Below are positions 23,481-29,199 of a stretch of 29,199 bases of DNA, piece by piece. The DNA lies in IMG/VR virus record IMGVR_UViG_3300012952_000087, positions 1 to 29,199 of that record; one strand, written 5' to 3'. The position numbers and the translations under genes were made by a program. The notes beneath the pieces are model-generated. The model made no database searches and was not told where the DNA came from. It saw only the letters and a list, made by a program, of their open reading frames with translations. The DNA is from a virus (Duplodnaviria; Caudoviricetes). Within the stretch, counting starts at the first letter, position 1. Every line of letters starts with the position of its first letter.

Positions 23481-25282
23481 TACTCTTTATACGCAACAAA
23501 TTTACTCTTTGACACATCTACATCTAGATATGCCTCACGTTTTACTTCAATATCTTTATTAGCAGGTTTGACTCGTAATTCAATACGATTATCAGAAAAA
23601 CTACCTTTTAAAATAGTGAAATCATAAAGTTGTATTTCCCCTTTATTATAATCAACAGTTCCTACCGAATCATTCAATAGAACCTTTTCACCACTTAAGG
23701 AATCTAGTCTATATAGGACTATTTTACCATCCCTATCTTCTAGATAAGTTGTATGATTAGGATGCTCAAATACTGTCATACCAGTAGATGATACAACAGG
23801 ATTATCACAATTTATAAGGAAAGGATTTTGATAGCATACTTCATAATATGAAGATGAATTTATCTGTGCTATAAAATCTTTTCTTAAAGTAATATCAGTA
23901 TCATTTGAATTAATAGAACGATCTGAACCATCAATAACACCGATAAACTTACTATATCTAAACTTTCCATTAAACTTCTCTGTACCAGAGGTTTTCAAAT
24001 ATGATATTATTCCTTTAGCAACCTTTGCTGCCATCTCAGCAGGAATCAATTTACTCTTTGTTGAATTGTAATATACCTTACTATCTAATTCAACATAAAG
24101 AACAGATGGATCTATAAACTCTGGTCTAATAGAAGCAATAGTATATTTCTTCAATTCTTCTGTTAACTGATTCTTAGTAAATGAAGATAGTGATGGTGCA
24201 TCATCAGGTTTAACAGAAAGAAATACTTTACCATATGAAGGTGGTTCTTGATCTTCTCCACCAAACACAATAATGTCACTTATTGCTGGATATAGATTTC
24301 TAGCAATAGCAGAAAAATCATTACCAGTTACTGCTCTATTCTGTGAACCATAGAACTTAGGAGCATTATATTTAATTTTTTCAATACTCTCAATTGATGT
24401 TCCACCACTAGATTTTGATACTACTGTTAGATTACTAACATTAAATGGTACTTGTATTGATGAACTATTCTCATCTACAATATTACCATTAAACCTAAAT
24501 GTGGATGCACCGTTAGTAGTATCTCCATTAGTTAATACTGTACCTATTTCAACTATATTACCATTATCAAGTTTTTTACCTAAAACACCATCACCAAAGA
24601 AGATTTCATATTTCTCATCTTCAATCTCATTAATAAAATAAACTTTATCATCAGAAGTAATATCTAAAATATTGTTAGCTTGTTCATATAGATTATACAC
24701 AGAAGAGTTCTGTGAATCCCATACCTTTACTTTAATTGTACTGACATCAGTAGAAGGATTATCTATTATAAATCTCTGATTATTTAAAGATGTGTCAACA
24801 ACAGTCTTTGTGCTAACATAAGAACCTTCATATACTATTAACCCATCAAATGATGCAACATTATTATTAACTATAGATTTATAGTCATCCTTAACTATGA
24901 AACGATATAGACTGCCATCAAAATTAGTAACAAATCCACTACCTGCCTTTATAGTAACAGAAACAGGAGCAGTTCCAGGAAATGTAATCTCTAAATCAAT
25001 TGTTGCACTTGGTGCAATTCTTGACTTTGGTGTATAACCTAATTGCTTTGCCAGAGAGACTACATTATCCCTGAGAGACGCTGAATCAAGGAACAACTCA
25101 TTTACCACCATGTTGGTGTTAAACGCTGTATAATACGTATTATATGCCAATACATCCAACAACTGACTGATAGCGGATCCTTCAAAATCGTAATCAGTGA
25201 AATCAGTCTGTGCTCTCATATAATCTTTGAGAGCAACTTTGATATCAACAAAGTCTAAATTGTTTAATTGAGTATATGGCAT
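23480..25282 (-). CDS. gp6: Baseplate wedge subunit, T4 gp6-like (600 aa)
   Basis: LDFVDIK...FTDYDFEGS...LLDVLAYNTYY...ELFLDSA..R..VVSLAKQLGYTP; YEIFFGDGVLGK; QNRAVT; YGKVF. Confidence 0.95.
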   Translation of the reverse strand: MPYTQLNNLDFVDIKVALKDYMRAQTDFTDYDFEGSAISQLLDVLAYNTYYTAFNTNMVVNELFLDSASLRDNVVSLAKQLGYTPKSRIAPSATIDLEITFPGTAPVSVTIKAGSGFVTNFDGSLYRFIVKDDYKSIVNNNVASFDGLIVYEGSYVSTKTVVDTSLNNQRFIIDNPSTDVSTIKVKVWDSQNSSVYNLYEQANNILDITSDDKVYFINEIEDEKYEIFFGDGVLGKKLDNGNIVEIGTVLTNGDTTNGASTFRFNGNIVDENSSSIQVPFNVSNLTVVSKSSGGTSIESIEKIKYNAPKFYGSQNRAVTGNDFSAIARNLYPAISDIIVFGGEDQEPPSYGKVFLSVKPDDAPSLSSFTKNQLTEELKKYTIASIRPEFIDPSVLYVELDSKVYYNSTKSKLIPAEMAAKVAKGIISYLKTSGTEKFNGKFRYSKFIGVIDGSDRSINSNDTDITLRKDFIAQINSSSYYEVCYQNPFLINCDNPVVSSTGMTVFEHPNHTTYLEDRDGKIVLYRLDSLSGEKVLLNDSVGTVDYNKGEIQLYDFTILKGSFSDNRIELRVKPANKDIEVKREAYLDVDVSKSKFVAYKE

Positions 25283-25674
25283 TATCTCGTTCTACTTAGG
25301 AAGAAGTCTACAGCAGTGGGTGAATTATCTAAACCTCGTATAGTATATACCAATGAAACATCAAATCCATTTTCATCATAGTTTGCATTAACCTTTACTT
25401 CTTCAATTTCAATTCTAGGTTCCCACTGACCTAGGGTATACATTATATTTTGTTTAATCTGAGCAGAAGTAGCATAGTCCATTGGTTCAAAAAGATAATT
25501 TCTTATATCTGAACCATACTCAGGATTGTAAAGTTTTTCTCCTTTATTTGTTAATAACAAATTTACAATTGCTTGTTTAATAGCAGAACCATCCTTACTG
25601 ACAACTAGGTCACCAGTAACAGGATGGTTTTTAAATGTCATATTAATGTCCTTGAAGGACAATGTAGCTGCCAT
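25282..25674 (-). CDS. gp25: Baseplate wedge subunit, T4 gp25-like (130 aa)
   Basis: AIKQAIVNLLLTNKGEKLYNPEYGSDIRNYLFEP...WEPRI is the gp25/GPW family signature. TAATG-coupled to gp6. Confidence 0.95.
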   Translation of the reverse strand: MAATLSFKDINMTFKNHPVTGDLVVSKDGSAIKQAIVNLLLTNKGEKLYNPEYGSDIRNYLFEPMDYATSAQIKQNIMYTLGQWEPRIEIEEVKVNANYDENGFDVSLVYTIRGLDNSPTAVDFFLSRTR

Positions 25675-25701
25675 TTACCGACAATATACGAAGTCAGTAG
25701 T

Positions 25702-25709
25702 TATTTAGA
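25702..25709 (-). promoter_or_regulatory. Late promoter variant TCTAAATA upstream of gp25
   Basis: Intergenic, about 28 nt upstream of the gp25 ATG, with the TAAATA core intact. Confidence 0.65.
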
Positions 25710-25713
25710 CAGT

Positions 25714-26310
25714 TTATACAGAGTATTGATATCCGTTCTTACTCACTAACTGAGTCTCTGAAATATTAAATGCCAAAGTTATCCTCTCTTCTTCCCCTCT
25801 AAATGGTAATACGGAATGTATTGTATCACTGGGGAACATAATCATAGTTCCATTCTTGCCTTCATACTCACAACATAAATCATTAAACGTAGTTGGGTGA
25901 TTATGGTTCTTATGGTATATCACACCTGATACAAACCCTGAGTGATTGTGCGGAGGATTGTCATCTCCTTTATACGCAAAGTTAGTCCACAGATCATATT
26001 TGTCAAAATAACCAGGCCAATTCTTTAATTGGAACTCACGGAGATTTCTTCCCTTACCCCAATGCTCTTGTGTTAATCTCAATACCCATGCCAACCAAAA
26101 CGAATCTTCAATCAAACGTGCAGGTACACCACATTGATATGAATTATGCTTTCTTCCATCACTAGAGAGATATGCAACATTCTCATGTGCTCGTATATCT
26201 GCTAAAGGGTGATTCTTAACTCTGATACTACAAGTAACCCAATAATCAATCTCTTCTTGTATAGATTCTGGAATATCAAAGATTAATATATTATCCTTTA
26301 GTTTTTTCAT
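25714..26310 (-). CDS. 2OG-Fe(II) oxygenase superfamily protein (PF13759/TIGR02466-like, 198 aa)
   Basis: W.N....GD.NPPHNH...SGVIY (HxH metal ligands); GTMIMFPS...HSV (distal His); RITLAFN (2OG-binding Arg). ATGA overlap with the SET gene. Confidence 0.88.
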   Translation of the reverse strand: MKKLKDNILIFDIPESIQEEIDYWVTCSIRVKNHPLADIRAHENVAYLSSDGRKHNSYQCGVPARLIEDSFWLAWVLRLTQEHWGKGRNLREFQLKNWPGYFDKYDLWTNFAYKGDDNPPHNHSGFVSGVIYHKNHNHPTTFNDLCCEYEGKNGTMIMFPSDTIHSVLPFRGEEERITLAFNISETQLVSKNGYQYSV

Positions 26311-26603
26311 ACTTTATAAAATGTATATTTTAAAAACAATTCCTCACCCTTCTTAATATCCTTAATCGTCTTCATATGATAAACATTACCCCATTCTTGG
26401 TCATCCGACCATTTAACGCAATTGGGGTCGTCAGAGTGGTTTACGAACCCTCCTAGGGGTGTTCTCATGATTTCTTTATCCACTACCACATGTGATATAC
26501 CAAGATACATCATAGCAGGTATGTCTTCTTTCGCAAAAAGACCTTGACCTGCTACTGAACTATTTTTTATATGTAATTCTTTAGGCAATGCCTGATATGT
26601 CAC
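26307..26603 (-). CDS. Minimal stand-alone SET-domain protein lysine methyltransferase (98 aa)
   Basis: All three SET signature motifs are present: SSVAGQGLFAKEDI (GxG), FVNHSDDPNC (NHSxxPN) and DIKKGEELFLKY (ELxxxY). GTG start overlaps the upstream TGA. Confidence 0.92.
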   Translation of the reverse strand: MTYQALPKELHIKNSSVAGQGLFAKEDIPAMMYLGISHVVVDKEIMRTPLGGFVNHSDDPNCVKWSDDQEWGNVYHMKTIKDIKKGEELFLKYTFYKV

Positions 26604-26737
26604 TTACCCTGTCCTCTATAACGCTTCTTTGGATTATTTCTAGAAGTTGCGGAAAGTTTTGTATTCTGTGAATTTCCCTGACGAGTCTTTTTAGGTTTCG
26701 CAGTAATTTGATCGTTTGTACTGTTGTATAATGCCAT
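26600..26737 (-). CDS. Small, highly basic protein (45 aa; below the ORF-track cutoff)
   Basis: ATG at 26737 to TGA at 26600 gives MALYNSTNDQITAKPKKTRQGNSQNTKLSATSRNNPKKRYRGQGK (7 K, 4 R, 1 D). It fills the gap exactly, lies about 22 nt after a -10 box and is GTGA-coupled to the SET gene. Confidence 0.85.
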   Translation of the reverse strand: MALYNSTNDQITAKPKKTRQGNSQNTKLSATSRNNPKKRYRGQGK

Positions 26738-26758
26738 ACTTAAATTTCAGTTTCTTAT

Positions 26759-26777
26759 ATTATAACACAGGTGTCAA
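26759..26777 (-). promoter_or_regulatory. Sigma70-type extended -10 promoter (TGtTATAAT) with a TTGACA hexamer only 7 nt upstream of TATAAT
   Basis: Minus strand reads TTGACA-CCTGTGT-TATAAT (TTGACA 26777-26772, TATAAT 26764-26759) in the gap between the PAAR stop and the basic-peptide ATG. Confidence 0.7.
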
Positions 26778-26778
26778 G

Positions 26779-27084
26779 TCACATAAAGACCGTATGACTT
26801 CCTGTAACAACTTGTGATCCATGATCTGTAGTAGATCCTTGAAATGCCATCATCTTGCCATCTGCAAAGACAGTTGGTTCTCCAGTGATTAATGTATCTG
26901 AATGTTCTGTTCCAACAAGAAACCCTAATGCTCTATGTGGAATGAATTTATCTCCCATACGGTGTACAGGTCTTCCATTAACAAATACAGTAGCAGACAT
27001 ACCCTTAGGTGCTGGTTCAGGCACTGGGGGTGGGTATATACCGTGTGGAGTTAATGGTAGTCCAGCTAATCCTATTGGTTTCAT
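26779..27084 (-). CDS. PAAR-domain spike-tip protein (T4 gp5.4-like, 101 aa)
   Basis: Three PAAR-like repeats (PIGLAG; TVFVNGRPVHRMGD; TVFADGKMMAFQG), terminal GSHTVF, and His residues at the putative metal site. Confidence 0.9.
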   Translation of the reverse strand: MKPIGLAGLPLTPHGIYPPPVPEPAPKGMSATVFVNGRPVHRMGDKFIPHRALGFLVGTEHSDTLITGEPTVFADGKMMAFQGSTTDHGSQVVTGSHTVFM

Positions 27085-28298
27085 GGTGCTATGTAACTAG
27101 GGTCACTATTACGTTTAAGACCAGCTCTATTTAGAAGGAATTCAGTACGTTGAGGACTAAACCTTGCTGAATGACGTACAGGTAAGTAGAAGTACCATAT
27201 TTGATTAGTTAAGTACGCTCCGTAAGTAGTAAGAGCATACGCTGCTAATCTTTCTGTCTCACTATCAATATCAGCACCCCACCAATCACTTTCGGGTATG
27301 TATACTACTTGACATGCTGTTTTAATTGTATAGACCACTGTATCCAGTTCAGTGGGTTTCATTTGTAACATCTGACCCATCCTAGGAGCCACGTCCGTCC
27401 CATCTACAATATATTTTGTATATTCATCCCATTTATCGTTACCGTAAGTTGCTGCTTTATCTCTATCAGTATTAACCCACTCATTATAAGTTTCTTGGTC
27501 GGAGTTCCATCCGCCGCCGTCATTTTGCAAGAATGGTTGAGACGGATATCCATTCACATCATTTGGAAACTCTAGTTTACCTTGTGAAGGAAGCTCGGCG
27601 TTACGGTACATCCAAGGTCCATCTTCTCTAATTCTGAATAACTCTTTATAATCCTCTAAAGACGGCGTAGGGTTTCCATCCTTATCAAAGTCCACAAATC
27701 TTGCTGCATCAACCTGCATGTTCGGTTGACCATAGAACATACCATTGGCAAATCTCAACTCCTGATCATAGAATGCATACTCAGAACAATACCCTGAAAG
27801 CTTTGAAATACCCAAAGCACCCAGAGTGGCAAGGTTCACACCTAGGACATTCTGAGTGATATTGACACCAGGATCAATAGATCCAGTTTGAGCCCATGCA
27901 TGATTGAGTGGATTGATATTACCCCAACCTCTACCCTGTGCCTGAGTGTCATACATGGTCTGCTCCCAGACTGGAAGACCATCTTCAGGGTCACGAGGCC
28001 ATAGGTCAATTCTGTCAATGCTTGTCTGAGTACTGACAATCTTTTCGCCTTTAAAAGCAGAGACCATCCAAATCTGAGTATCCTCTATATCTTCCCATGT
28101 AATCCAAGGAGGAGTCTGTGAGATTAGTCCTGGTTTTAATCCATCCCAAAACTTCGTATGATTCTTAGGATAGAACCTACCTGAATAAAATGGTACACCA
28201 TTACCAGATAACTGTCCCAACTTTCCAATATCAGCAAGTTCAACAGGACCAATACCTCCCATTGATGGTGCTAATATGTTAATGAAGGGAACAGTCAT
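27081..28298 (-). CDS. Hypothetical protein (405 aa), Trp/Pro/Asp-rich, translationally coupled to PAAR; possibly virion-associated
   Basis: Long ORF with ATGA overlaps at both ends. No catalytic motif recognised. Confidence 0.8.
   Translation of the reverse strand: MTVPFINILAPSMGGIGPVELADIGKLGQLSGNGVPFYSGRFYPKNHTKFWDGLKPGLISQTPPWITWEDIEDTQIWMVSAFKGEKIVSTQTSIDRIDLWPRDPEDGLPVWEQTMYDTQAQGRGWGNINPLNHAWAQTGSIDPGVNITQNVLGVNLATLGALGISKLSGYCSEYAFYDQELRFANGMFYGQPNMQVDAARFVDFDKDGNPTPSLEDYKELFRIREDGPWMYRNAELPSQGKLEFPNDVNGYPSQPFLQNDGGGWNSDQETYNEWVNTDRDKAATYGNDKWDEYTKYIVDGTDVAPRMGQMLQMKPTELDTVVYTIKTACQVVYIPESDWWGADIDSETERLAAYALTTYGAYLTNQIWYFYLPVRHSARFSPQRTEFLLNRAGLKRNSDPSYIAP
27128..27135 (-). promoter_or_regulatory. 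Possible late promoter TCTAAATA upstream of the PAAR gene
   Basis: Same octamer as the one before gp25, about 44 nt upstream of the PAAR ATG, inside the end of the 405-aa gene. Confidence 0.4.
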
Positions 28299-28498
28299 CC
28301 TTTTAACTCTTCTATACTATTATGTAAATAATCAAGAGTCTGTGCTATCGTCTGATGATCCTTCGCTAAGGGAGGTTTGTACATCAAACGAGGTTTCTCC
28401 AGTGAGGAGATTCTCTGCTCCATCGTGGTTAATCTCTCTGATAACTCTTGGAGTAACTCGTTGCACTGCTGCATTGTCAATTGGTTGTCTGCTGTCAT
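28295..28498 (-). CDS. Hypothetical coiled-coil protein (likely 67 aa from ATG 28498 rather than TTG 28558)
   Basis: AGGA Shine-Dalgarno (28509-28506) 7 nt before ATG 28498. Heptads LLQELSERLTTMEQRISSLE and QTLDYLHNSIEELK. Its TGA overlaps the ATG of the 405-aa gene. Confidence 0.7.
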   Translation of the reverse strand: MTADNQLTMQQCNELLQELSERLTTMEQRISSLEKPRLMYKPPLAKDHQTIAQTLDYLHNSIEELKG

Positions 28499-28598
28499 TA
28501 TCTTGTCCTGAGAATCTCTGTGCTGCTCCTGCTTCAAATCCATCGCAGAATTCTTCAAAGTTATCTAATATACGTTGGTAGTTCTTTCTAGGATCCAT
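28332..28598 (-). CDS. Hypothetical acidic protein (likely 88 aa from ATG 28598, MDPRKNY...)
   Basis: ATG overlaps the end of the 100-aa gene by 11 nt. The amphipathic N-terminus YQRILDNFEEFCDGFE covers a stretch that would otherwise be non-coding. The C-terminal 167 nt overlap the 67-aa ORF in another frame. Confidence 0.6.
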   Translation of the reverse strand: MDPRKNYQRILDNFEEFCDGFEAGAAQRFSGQDNDSRQPIDNAAVQRVTPRVIREINHDGAENLLTGETSFDVQTSLSEGSSDDSTDS

Positions 28599-28890
28599 AT
28601 TTAATACCTGATGGGGATTCGGGCGGACCATCGTGTGTAAACTTCGGAAATCTTGTCTGTGTTTCCAATTCGTTTAAACGATCTTCCATTTCGTTGAGTT
28701 TTATAGCAACGTTCTCTAAGGCATCCACAATTCTTGCGATTTGCTTGTCATGTACCACTACTGCGTACTTCGGATTCTCTAAGAGTTGCTGGTGGGCGAT
28801 TTCGTCAGGACTTTCTGCCTTTACGTCCACAATGTCTGTGTTAGGAGCCATAATTTTAAATGCTTTATTTGGTTCGTCTTTTTTCACCAT
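28588..28890 (-). CDS. Hypothetical coiled-coil protein (100 aa), first gene after the late promoter
   Basis: ORF with heptads IVDALENVAIKLNEMEDRLNELE, preceded by an A-rich leader and GATAAATA. Confidence 0.8.
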   Translation of the reverse strand: MVKKDEPNKAFKIMAPNTDIVDVKAESPDEIAHQQLLENPKYAVVVHDKQIARIVDALENVAIKLNEMEDRLNELETQTRFPKFTHDGPPESPSGIKYGS

Positions 28891-28948
28891 TTTTTTGCTG
28901 GAAAAATTTTTTGAAAATCAAGGTTTTGAAATTTCAATTTTGTAAAAC

Positions 28949-28956
28949 TATTTATC
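28949..28956 (-). promoter_or_regulatory. Late promoter GATAAATA at the head of the structural region
   Basis: NATAAATA match, intergenic, downstream of a terminator and about 59 nt upstream of ATG 28890. Confidence 0.65.
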
Positions 28957-29031
28957 TCTCGTTGGGATACTTTTGTAGACTTGCATATGGTTAGGAGTCC
29001 CACTCGGCATCGCCCCCACCGCTAAGGGCAA

Positions 29032-29060
29032 TAAAAAAACCCTGTCGTGTCGGACAGGGT
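29032..29060 (-). terminator. Rho-independent terminator
   Basis: Minus strand ACCCTGTC-CGACAC-GACAGGGT followed by TTTTTTA, 11 nt after the TAA at 29072. Confidence 0.85.
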
Positions 29061-29071
29061 GTGTTATACTG

Positions 29072-29199
29072 TTAGAAGCAACCGTTGCGACTGTCGCCCC
29101 AACCATTTCTGAAATACTCCTCACGTTCTCGGTTTCTGCATTGGGGGTCGCCCAAGTCATCCAAGACATCCTGTAAGAAATTCACTGGTGAAACCTCAA
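29072..29199 (-). CDS. C-terminal end of a small hypothetical protein entering from outside the window
   Basis: Open frame ...EVSPVNFLQDVLDDLGDPQCRNREREEYFRNGWGDSRNGCF* ending at TAA 29074-29072, immediately followed by the terminator. Confidence 0.7.
   Translation of the reverse strand, partial: EVSPVNFLQDVLDDLGDPQCRNREREEYFRNGWGDSRNGCF

What the first reader, a model, noticed from the sequence alone, without database searches (positions are those of the whole stretch)
26600..26737. Unannotated 45-aa basic peptide with histone-tail-like character directly upstream of a SET gene
Seen: net charge about +10, no hydrophobic core, 7 lysines. The segment K-L-S-A-T-S-R-N-N-P-K-K-R-Y-R-G aligns by eye with histone H3 K27-S-A-P-A-T-G-G-V-K36-K37-P-H-R-Y-R-P-G (shared K..SA, KK and RYR at similar spacing), and AKPKK recalls histone H1 tails. 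Established: the chlorovirus PBCV-1 minimal vSET methylates H3K27. From memory, similar peptides ending in YRGQG are common before gp25 in T4-like cyanophages and have no known function. Inference: a DNA/RNA-condensing or ribosome-binding peptide that SET may modify. The H3 likeness may be a coincidence of low complexity.
Basis: partly seen in the sequence, partly recalled or inferred. Interest (0 to 1): 0.7.

Follow-up and report, generated by a model that had tools for sequence, protein, structure and literature searches.

The report
Core cyanophage microprotein, not histone mimic
This 45-residue basic protein is a real, strongly conserved gene found in nearly all T4-like ocean cyanophage genomes checked, and its relative in one lab phage is made mid-infection; it likely binds nucleic acid inside the cell, its histone likeness is no better than chance, and the neighbouring methyltransferase is an optional passenger.

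Summary
The ORF is real (minus strand, 26737-26600, 45 aa, 7 K, net +10). It is a catalogued family, phrog_516 / T4-GC394: 449 cultured phage records, at least 5,063 metagenomic clusters, dN/dS 0.10. The Syn9 homologue g96 is a middle gene, detected by mass spectrometry in infected cells and not flagged as a particle protein. Here and in about half of relatives a host-type promoter motif lies directly upstream; late motifs sit before gp25 instead.

The H3 likeness fails: no PDB or Pfam histone hit, a hand score (about 20) below the median of unrelated basic 45-mers (22), and the best-kept residues (TRQG, YRGQG) lie largely outside the match. SET is intact but optional: 9 of 78 peptide-anchored loci, 7 cultured records. 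It hugs gp25 (60 of 80) more than the peptide (32 of 80). K27 is invariant in SET loci (59 of 59), but the signal vanishes once kinship is controlled.

A distant subfamily sits beside terminase or head genes in small non-T4 phages. Best guess: a disordered intracellular nucleic-acid binder, likely on phage DNA (0.4). The scan had not reported this family before.

The parts
26600..26737 (-). 45-aa basic microprotein, phrog_516 / T4-GC394 (P0001); conserved core K16-x-T-R-Q-G ... T26-K27 ... K38-x-Y-R-G-Q-G44 with a fixed C-terminus
26759..26767 (-). TGnTATAAT extended -10, host sigma70-type promoter-like motif; the TATAAT hexamer starts 27 nt before the ATG (promoter function inferred)
   Evidence: one of 3 such sites on the whole minus strand; same motif upstream in 37 of 138 relatives against 0.46 in shuffles
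26307..26603 (-). 98-aa minimal SET-domain protein (phrog_28741), GxG, NHS and ELxxxY motifs invariant in 30 aligned relatives; GTG start overlaps the peptide's TGA; optional cargo of the slot
25714..26310 (-). 2OG-Fe(II) oxygenase, second cargo gene of the slot
25702..25707 (-). TAAATA, T4 late-promoter-like core before gp25 (function inferred)
   Evidence: present before gp25 in 73 of 77 relatives and before the peptide in 0 of 77
25282..25674 (-). gp25 baseplate wedge subunit, downstream core anchor of the slot
26779..27084 (-). PAAR-motif gene upstream of the peptide

Best explanation
This is a near-core, purifying-selected microprotein of T4-like cyanophages (phrog_516), predicted to be disordered, that is likely made in the middle phase of infection as its Syn9 homologue is, and likely works inside the cell by binding a structured nucleic-acid site, probably phage DNA on its way from replication to packaging. 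Shown: the gene, its spread, selection, and the transcript and protein of homologues. Inferred: the host-type promoter works; the protein folds only on binding; its two basic Gln-Gly motifs and fixed C-terminus read a defined site rather than only neutralising charge; the ligand is DNA. The SET and 2OG-oxygenase genes are exchangeable cargo in the slot between this gene and gp25. They likely share its promoter, and likely stay in the slot by recombination between the conserved flanks rather than because SET needs the peptide.
For: Spread: 449 phage records, all named Synechococcus, Cyanophage, Prochlorococcus or Marine, against 374 Synechococcus and 61 Cyanophage records with a gp25 hit (peptide: 357 and 63). 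At least 5,063 clusters at 90% identity. In GTDB, only 12 MAG contigs, 8 of them with gp25. Selection: dN/dS 0.10 over 166 non-independent pairs from 136 distinct cores; third codon positions are the most variable. Expression: Syn9 g96 is 'middle', seen by MS in WH8102 and 4 of 5 resistant strains, and not flagged 'found in particle'. It is absent in MIT9215, where capsid, sheath and portal are present, the same pattern as gp32 and UvsX (PMC6708340 Table S3A). S-SSM5 SSSM5_091 RNA peaks at time point 1 in both treatments, gp25 and gp6 at 3-4 (PMC9723779 supplement tab 7). Promoters: sigma70-like motif upstream in 71 of 138 against 4.3 shuffled (pattern widened after seeing the data); late core before the peptide in 0 of 77. 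Specific site: uncharged T18, G21, T26, Y40, G42, Q43 and G44 are kept in at least 90% of 34 divergent members. DNA side: the distant subfamily lies within 1 kb of terminase in 61 of 80 loci and beside head-module or other very basic genes in 15 more (adding 9 DUF5872 loci that a label bug put under 'other'). It follows speD in S-TIM5 and a speD-like ORF in L033 (judged by eye). SET independence.
Against: No binding was measured and no structural homologue exists to suggest a ligand. The 80 distant loci are 47 distinct peptides from a few lineages, and the terminase queries came from those same loci. Those loci have no sigma70-like motif (0 of 78) and sit in late modules, which fits a virion role as well. 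The S-TIM4 homologue (ORF 97) is not among the proteins listed as detected. In S-SSM5 the upstream PAAR gene shows the same early peak, so the timing may belong to a longer transcript. Only 30 of 77 peptide-anchored loci have the motif directly upstream. SET is strongly slot-faithful (65 of 80 with the peptide in the flank), and K27 is 59 of 59 in SET loci against 60 of 73 without (Fisher p 5e-4 pooled). That g96 equals BSV9_gp96 is inferred from matching numbers.
Confidence: 0.4

Rival explanations
1. It binds ribosomal or other structured RNA, threading into a conserved pocket as the basic Gly/Gln-rich tails of ribosomal proteins do, and tunes host translation during infection.
For: Middle timing and intracellular detection. 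Invariant small and polar residues and a fixed C-terminus. The same motif in unrelated phage types, which suits a universal host target. The likeness to ribosomal-protein tails is recalled, from no call.
Against: No ribosomal protein or ribosome factor in Pfam, NCBIfam or PDB matches. The distant subfamily lies in packaging and head modules. No cellular homologue was found in isolate genomes (close-pattern search only).
Confidence: 0.25
2. It is a virion-internal, protamine-like protein that neutralises DNA inside the head.
For: Net charge median +12 in 284 family proteins. In small non-T4 phages it follows the major capsid gene among very basic ORFs (DUF5872, phrog_7595; charges +20 to +32) or precedes terminase.
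Against: Syn9 g96 is not flagged in particles although trypsin gives detectable peptides, and it does not behave like inoculum proteins in MIT9215. Early or middle timing. No capsid-targeting-like N-terminus in 0 of 284 (motif recalled). Sequence, not only composition, is conserved.
Confidence: 0.15
3. The C-terminal YRGQG[KR] is a short linear motif that plugs a host or phage enzyme (RNA polymerase, a protease, a nuclease or a defence protein).
For: Disorder. The chain ends 0-2 residues after GQG in all 148 loci. Middle timing.
Against: The +10 charge is spread over the whole chain. There is no partner gene in any context and no structural lead.
Confidence: 0.13
4. One reading: the peptide mimics a histone tail and is the substrate of the adjacent SET enzyme, a phage writer-substrate pair.
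For: GTGA overlap here and direct adjacency in 32 of 80 SET loci. SET is in this slot in most relatives, with at least 13 gains or losses on a gp25 tree. K27 is kept in all 59 SET-bearing cores and in all 16 rows of the distant alignment. One distant-subfamily locus, L242, has a divergent SET nearby. SET motifs are intact.
Against: H3 likeness is at background. The peptide has 449 cultured records and SET has 7, adjacent in 3. SET is directly before gp25 in 60 of 80. P-SSM7 SET lies after nrdB, about 113 kb from its peptide. Kolga-type SET has the peptide in 0 of 51 flanks; distant peptides have SET in 1 of 80. K27 against SET in peptide-anchored loci is 9 of 9 versus 56 of 69, p 0.34. N25, S29 and S32 differ as strongly as K27 in the pooled test, and independent pairs show no trend, though underpowered. 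vSET is not the nearest structure (15th by sequence, 29th by fold).
Confidence: 0.07

Closest known systems
phrog_516 = T4-GC394 (Sullivan et al. 2010, PMC3037559); Syn9 gp96, P-SSM4 PSSM4_075, S-SSM5 SSSM5_091
   Same: Sequence (E 1.5e-21), length, motifs and position upstream of gp25.
   Different: Nothing essential. The paper's table lists it in 8 of 16 cyanophages, while tblastn also finds it in records where it was not called (P-HM1, P-RSM6, Syn30). No function is assigned.
Histone H3 N-terminal tail (K27/K36 region) and H1 tails
   Same: Basic, disordered, rich in Lys, Ser, Thr and Gly.
   Different: No significant sequence match, no histone fold attached, and the family's best-kept TRQG and YRGQG motifs are not those of the proposed alignment.
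PBCV-1 vSET (A612L, PDB 1n3j/3kma), for the neighbouring gene
   Same: Minimal stand-alone SET domain; full-length profile match E 3e-5; SET fold.
   Different: About 22% identity, TM 0.48, ranked below MLL, SETD8 and S. pombe Set7. vSET acts on host H3K27 in a eukaryote (established knowledge); the cyanobacterial host has no H3. The phage SET's substrate is unknown.
T4 internal proteins IPI-III and other virion-internal basic proteins (recalled)
   Same: Small, basic phage proteins.
   Different: No capsid-targeting-like start (0 of 284); Syn9 homologue is middle-class and not flagged in particles.

Membership tests
phrog_516 / T4-GC394 | Profile match over the length of the protein | tested here: met
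   E 1.5e-21, residues 6-45 to profile 9-48 of 48
phrog_516 / T4-GC394 | Position upstream of gp25 in T4-like cyanophages | tested here: met
   gp25 is 926 nt downstream here; seen in 78 of 80 peptide-anchored loci
Histone H3-tail mimic | Sequence similarity to H3 above background | tested here: not met
   No histone in PDB at E<=10 or in Pfam; hand score about 20 against a background median of 22
Histone H3-tail mimic | Conservation of the H3-like context across homologues | tested here: not met
   K.SA in 167 and KK.{0,2}RYR in 145 of 389; K27 in 122, K37 in 95 and K38 in 136 of 136 cores. K27 and K38 themselves are well kept.
Histone H3-tail mimic | Recognised by a histone-modifying or histone-binding protein | not testable with these tools
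   Needs an in vitro methylation or binding assay
Dedicated SET-substrate pair | Obligate co-occurrence and linkage of the two genes | tested here: not met
   SET in 9 of 78 peptide-anchored loci; 0 of 51 Kolga-type SET loci have the peptide, and 15 of 80 near SET loci lack it in the flank
Dedicated SET-substrate pair | Target lysine co-varies with SET after allowing for kinship | tested here: inconclusive
   Pooled p 5e-4; unbiased set p 0.34; only 4 changes of K27 on the tree, too few for a sign test
SET-domain methyltransferases (neighbour gene) | PF00856 above cut-off, GxG / NHS / ELxxxY motifs, SET fold | tested here: met
   46.6 bits against 22.4; motifs invariant in 30 rows; pLDDT 82.5, all listed PDB fold hits are SET or PR domains
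T4-type virion internal proteins | N-terminal capsid-targeting sequence | tested here: not met
   0 of 284 family proteins match the recalled motif
T4-type virion internal proteins | Late expression and presence in the particle | tested here: not met
   From papers, for homologues only: Syn9 g96 middle and not flagged in particle; SSSM5_091 peak at time point 1

The most novel reading that the evidence does not exclude
A disordered nucleic-acid-binding microprotein shared by T4-like cyanophages and unrelated small marine phages carries a conserved lysine (K27 or K38) that an optional phage SET enzyme methylates, giving a virus of bacteria its own chromatin-like writer-substrate switch without any histone ancestry.
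Probability: 0.07. Interest if true: 0.85.

Novelty: new member of a known kind. Interest (0 to 1): 0.36.

Why it matters
The histone story would have been striking, but it does not survive testing. What remains is still useful: a gene present in about 95% of T4-like cyanophage records, often missed by gene callers, expressed as protein, with a motif shared by unrelated small marine phages, and with no assigned function in the papers searched. It is a compact, testable target in culturable phages (Syn9, S-SSM5, and P-RSM6 for the SET pair). The substrate of the cyanophage mini-SET is also open; two paper searches found no study of it.

Tried and rejected
Complex prediction of SET + peptide + SAH gave 'no answer'; it is not used for or against. 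ESM Atlas: nearest clusters are unnamed hypothetical proteins, with no usable named hit. Caulobacter tblastn hits to a distant member (three shown, E about 9-10, partial) were taken as noise; the 4 Streptomyces records in the tally were never displayed. One HMG14/17 hit in 1 of 34 members at E 0.012 was not pursued. Rfam over 25200-29199 gave one sub-threshold snoRNA hit, rejected. The promoter scanner needs a -35 box and so did not list the extended -10 site. RNA runs held only small shares as contigs and showed nothing on this locus's expression. Clustering of slot cargo gave an artefactual 47-locus cluster twice, so only the SET count (9) is used. Doron et al. 2016 is not held; its classes are cited second-hand from PMC6708340. 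PMC11726456 supplements had no g96 row, and one file was unreadable. A motif search of papers (YRGQG, KKTRQG, phrog 516, T4-GC 394) gave 7 listings, none on phage by title. Searches on ribosome-binding phage peptides and cyanophage promoters gave nothing I used (listings only). The peptide model was too poor for a fold search. A scan for a KKTSIG variant subfamily could not be run.

Full report
Observation. The ORF is on the minus strand at 26737-26600 and encodes 45 residues with 7 Lys, 4 Arg and 1 Asp, net +10. Gene order on that strand is PAAR (phrog_281), peptide, SET (PF00856; phrog_28741), 2OG-Fe(II) oxygenase, gp25, then a gp6-like gene. The SET start GTG overlaps the peptide's TGA. AlphaFold2 on a 34-row alignment gives coil throughout, pTM 0.23.

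Identity. The peptide matches phrog_516, unknown function (E 1.5e-21), and no Pfam or NCBIfam family. It is T4-GC394 of Sullivan et al. 2010 (PMC3037559; I saw passages and supplement rows), listed there in 8 of 16 cyanophages. tblastn finds it in 449 of 50,697 phage records, all named Synechococcus (357), Cyanophage (63), Prochlorococcus (24) or Marine (5). gp25 hits 374 Synechococcus and 61 Cyanophage records, so the gene is near-core, and it is missed by annotation in P-HM1, P-RSM6 and Syn30. A profile finds at least 5,063 clusters among 7,987 scored candidates and 158 representatives at 50% identity. GTDB gave 12 MAG contigs, 8 with gp25 beside the gene, and no isolate genome.

Selection. 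All 148 loci with a refined start had an ungapped 30-residue core, 136 of them distinct. K16, Q20, G21, K38, G42, Q43 and G44 are in 136 of 136; K27 in 122, K37 in 95, P36 in 2. dN/dS is 0.10 over 166 pairs at 80% or more identity, which are not independent. Peptide-anchored loci were fetched with these motifs, so that count is partly circular. The 59 SET-bearing cores, mostly fetched through SET, and the 34 divergent proteins of alignment A3 show largely the same conserved columns.

The H3 likeness. Neither P0001 nor three profiles hits any histone among 177,635 PDB sequences at E<=10. P0001 scores a median 22 against 75 unrelated basic 45-mers taken from fetched loci. In 389 family proteins TRQG occurs in 368 and K.YRGQG in 367, but K.SA in 167 and KK.{0,2}RYR in 145. 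The likeness is what basic, low-complexity composition gives. I did not run a shuffle test against H3 itself.

The SET link. SET is intact: motifs are invariant in 30 relatives, the model has pLDDT 82.5 and a SET fold, and vSET is a weaker match than MLL or SETD8 domains. It is optional: 9 of 78 peptide-anchored loci with the whole slot in view carry it, and 7 cultured records, adjacent to the peptide only in P-RSM6 (2 records) and AG-345-P14. In P-SSM7 it follows nrdB, about 113 kb from the peptide. In pelagiphage Kolga and 51 Kolga-type loci no peptide is nearby.

Against my reading, SET is faithful to this slot. The peptide is in the flank of 65 of the best 80 SET loci (of 328 found) and of 56 of 80 in an overlapping P-SSM7-anchored set. 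SET changes state at least 13 times on a gp25 tree of 129 rows. But SET directly precedes gp25 in 60 of 80 and directly follows the peptide in 32 of 80, with other cargo often between them. K27 is 59 of 59 with SET and 60 of 73 without (p 5e-4), yet N25, S29 and S32 differ about as strongly. The peptide-anchored set gives 9 of 9 versus 56 of 69, p 0.34, and K27 changes only 4 times on the tree, too few for a paired test. I read this as kinship plus exchange between conserved flanks (inference); it does not exclude methylation.

Timing and location. A TGnTATAAT motif lies at 26767-26759. The exact motif is upstream in 37 of 138 relatives against 0.46 shuffled, mostly 26-30 nt before the start; a wider pattern set after seeing the data gives 71 of 138 against 4.3, and 30 of 77 in the peptide-anchored set. 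TAAATA precedes gp25 in 73 of 77 (90 nt searched) and the peptide in 0 of 77 (70 nt). A terminator-like hairpin follows the stop in 17 of 80 against 1.4 shuffled. In PMC6708340 (passages and supplement parts 2-3) Syn9 g96 is a middle gene, detected by MS in WH8102 and 4 of 5 resistant strains, without the 'found in particle' note. It is absent in MIT9215, where capsid, sheath and portal are seen. The S-TIM4 homologue is not in that paper's detected list. In PMC9723779 (passages and supplement 2, tab 7 rows) SSSM5_091, confirmed as the homologue, peaks at time point 1, the authors' 'early', falling from log2 RPKM about 13.3 to 11.8, while gp25 and gp6 peak at 3-4. The upstream PAAR gene peaks early too. 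Doron et al. 2016 could not be read, and its supplements may hold start sites that bear on this.

Beyond T4-like phages. The gene is in S-TIM5 right after speD, with the same motif upstream; in L033 after a speD-like ORF and in L085 after a tail-fibre-like module (read by eye). A distant subfamily, still phrog_516, occurs in small phages with SU10-type capsid or other terminases. It lies within 1 kb of terminase in 61 of the best 80 loci (of 164 found) and beside head-module or very basic genes (DUF5872, phrog_7595) in 15, with no sigma70-like motif in 78. These are 47 distinct peptides from few lineages, with no cultured match. One of 80 has a divergent SET nearby.

Mechanism. Shown: a conserved, selected gene whose homologues are transcribed early or middle and translated. 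Inferred: a disordered chain with two basic Gln-Gly motifs and a fixed end binds a defined nucleic-acid site. I favour phage DNA between replication and packaging (0.4) because of the terminase, head and speD neighbourhoods, over ribosomal RNA (0.25), virion core (0.15), a protein-plugging motif (0.13) and a histone-like SET substrate (0.07). None has direct binding evidence.

Verdict. A new member of a catalogued family of unknown function; the histone framing is not supported. The scan's earlier notes held nothing on this family. Interest 0.36.

Noticed in passing
window 26307-26603 (-); loci L091-L169, L264-L391: The 98-aa cyanophage mini-SET is highly conserved (328 IMG/VR relatives) with an invariant RTPxGG segment before NHS, and a related form occurs in pelagiphage Kolga. 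Its substrate is unknown; two searches found no paper on it.
   Followed up: partly
L218:4490-4950, L249, L250, L207, L208:4643-4969, L214:4568-4837: Small non-T4 phages carry runs of very basic ORFs (net +20 to +32; DUF5872 split in two, DUF6321, phrog_7595) between the major capsid gene and the peptide, a candidate set of virion core proteins.
   Followed up: partly
L170:13130-13711 (S-SSM5 SSSM5_090): The PAAR-annotated gene peaks at the earliest time point at high level, unlike other baseplate genes; a TGnTATACT motif lies inside it 330 nt before the peptide.
   Followed up: partly
first 60 nt after the peptide stop in e.g. L031, L072, L099, L101, L114, L150: A recurring CCGAA(A)CGCCGA-like element follows the stop codon in 11 of 148 loci (ACGCCGA in 17). 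Function unknown.
   Followed up: no
proteins P0034, P0273, P0274: 68-69-aa forms score far above single copies against the profile; P0034 shows a tandem duplication of the C-terminal half. Possibly real duplications or assembly artefacts.
   Followed up: no
L001:2565-2789 (PHM1_084); P-RSM4 gene 103: In some genomes an overlapping out-of-frame ORF (T4-GC506) is annotated over or instead of the peptide gene.
   Followed up: no
L251-L262: Twelve GTDB MAGs of unrelated taxa (including an archaeon) contain contigs with this gene, 8 with gp25, which looks like binned cyanophage DNA.
   Followed up: no
window 27081-28298 (-): A 405-aa ORF upstream of PAAR has no PHROG or Pfam match.
   Followed up: no
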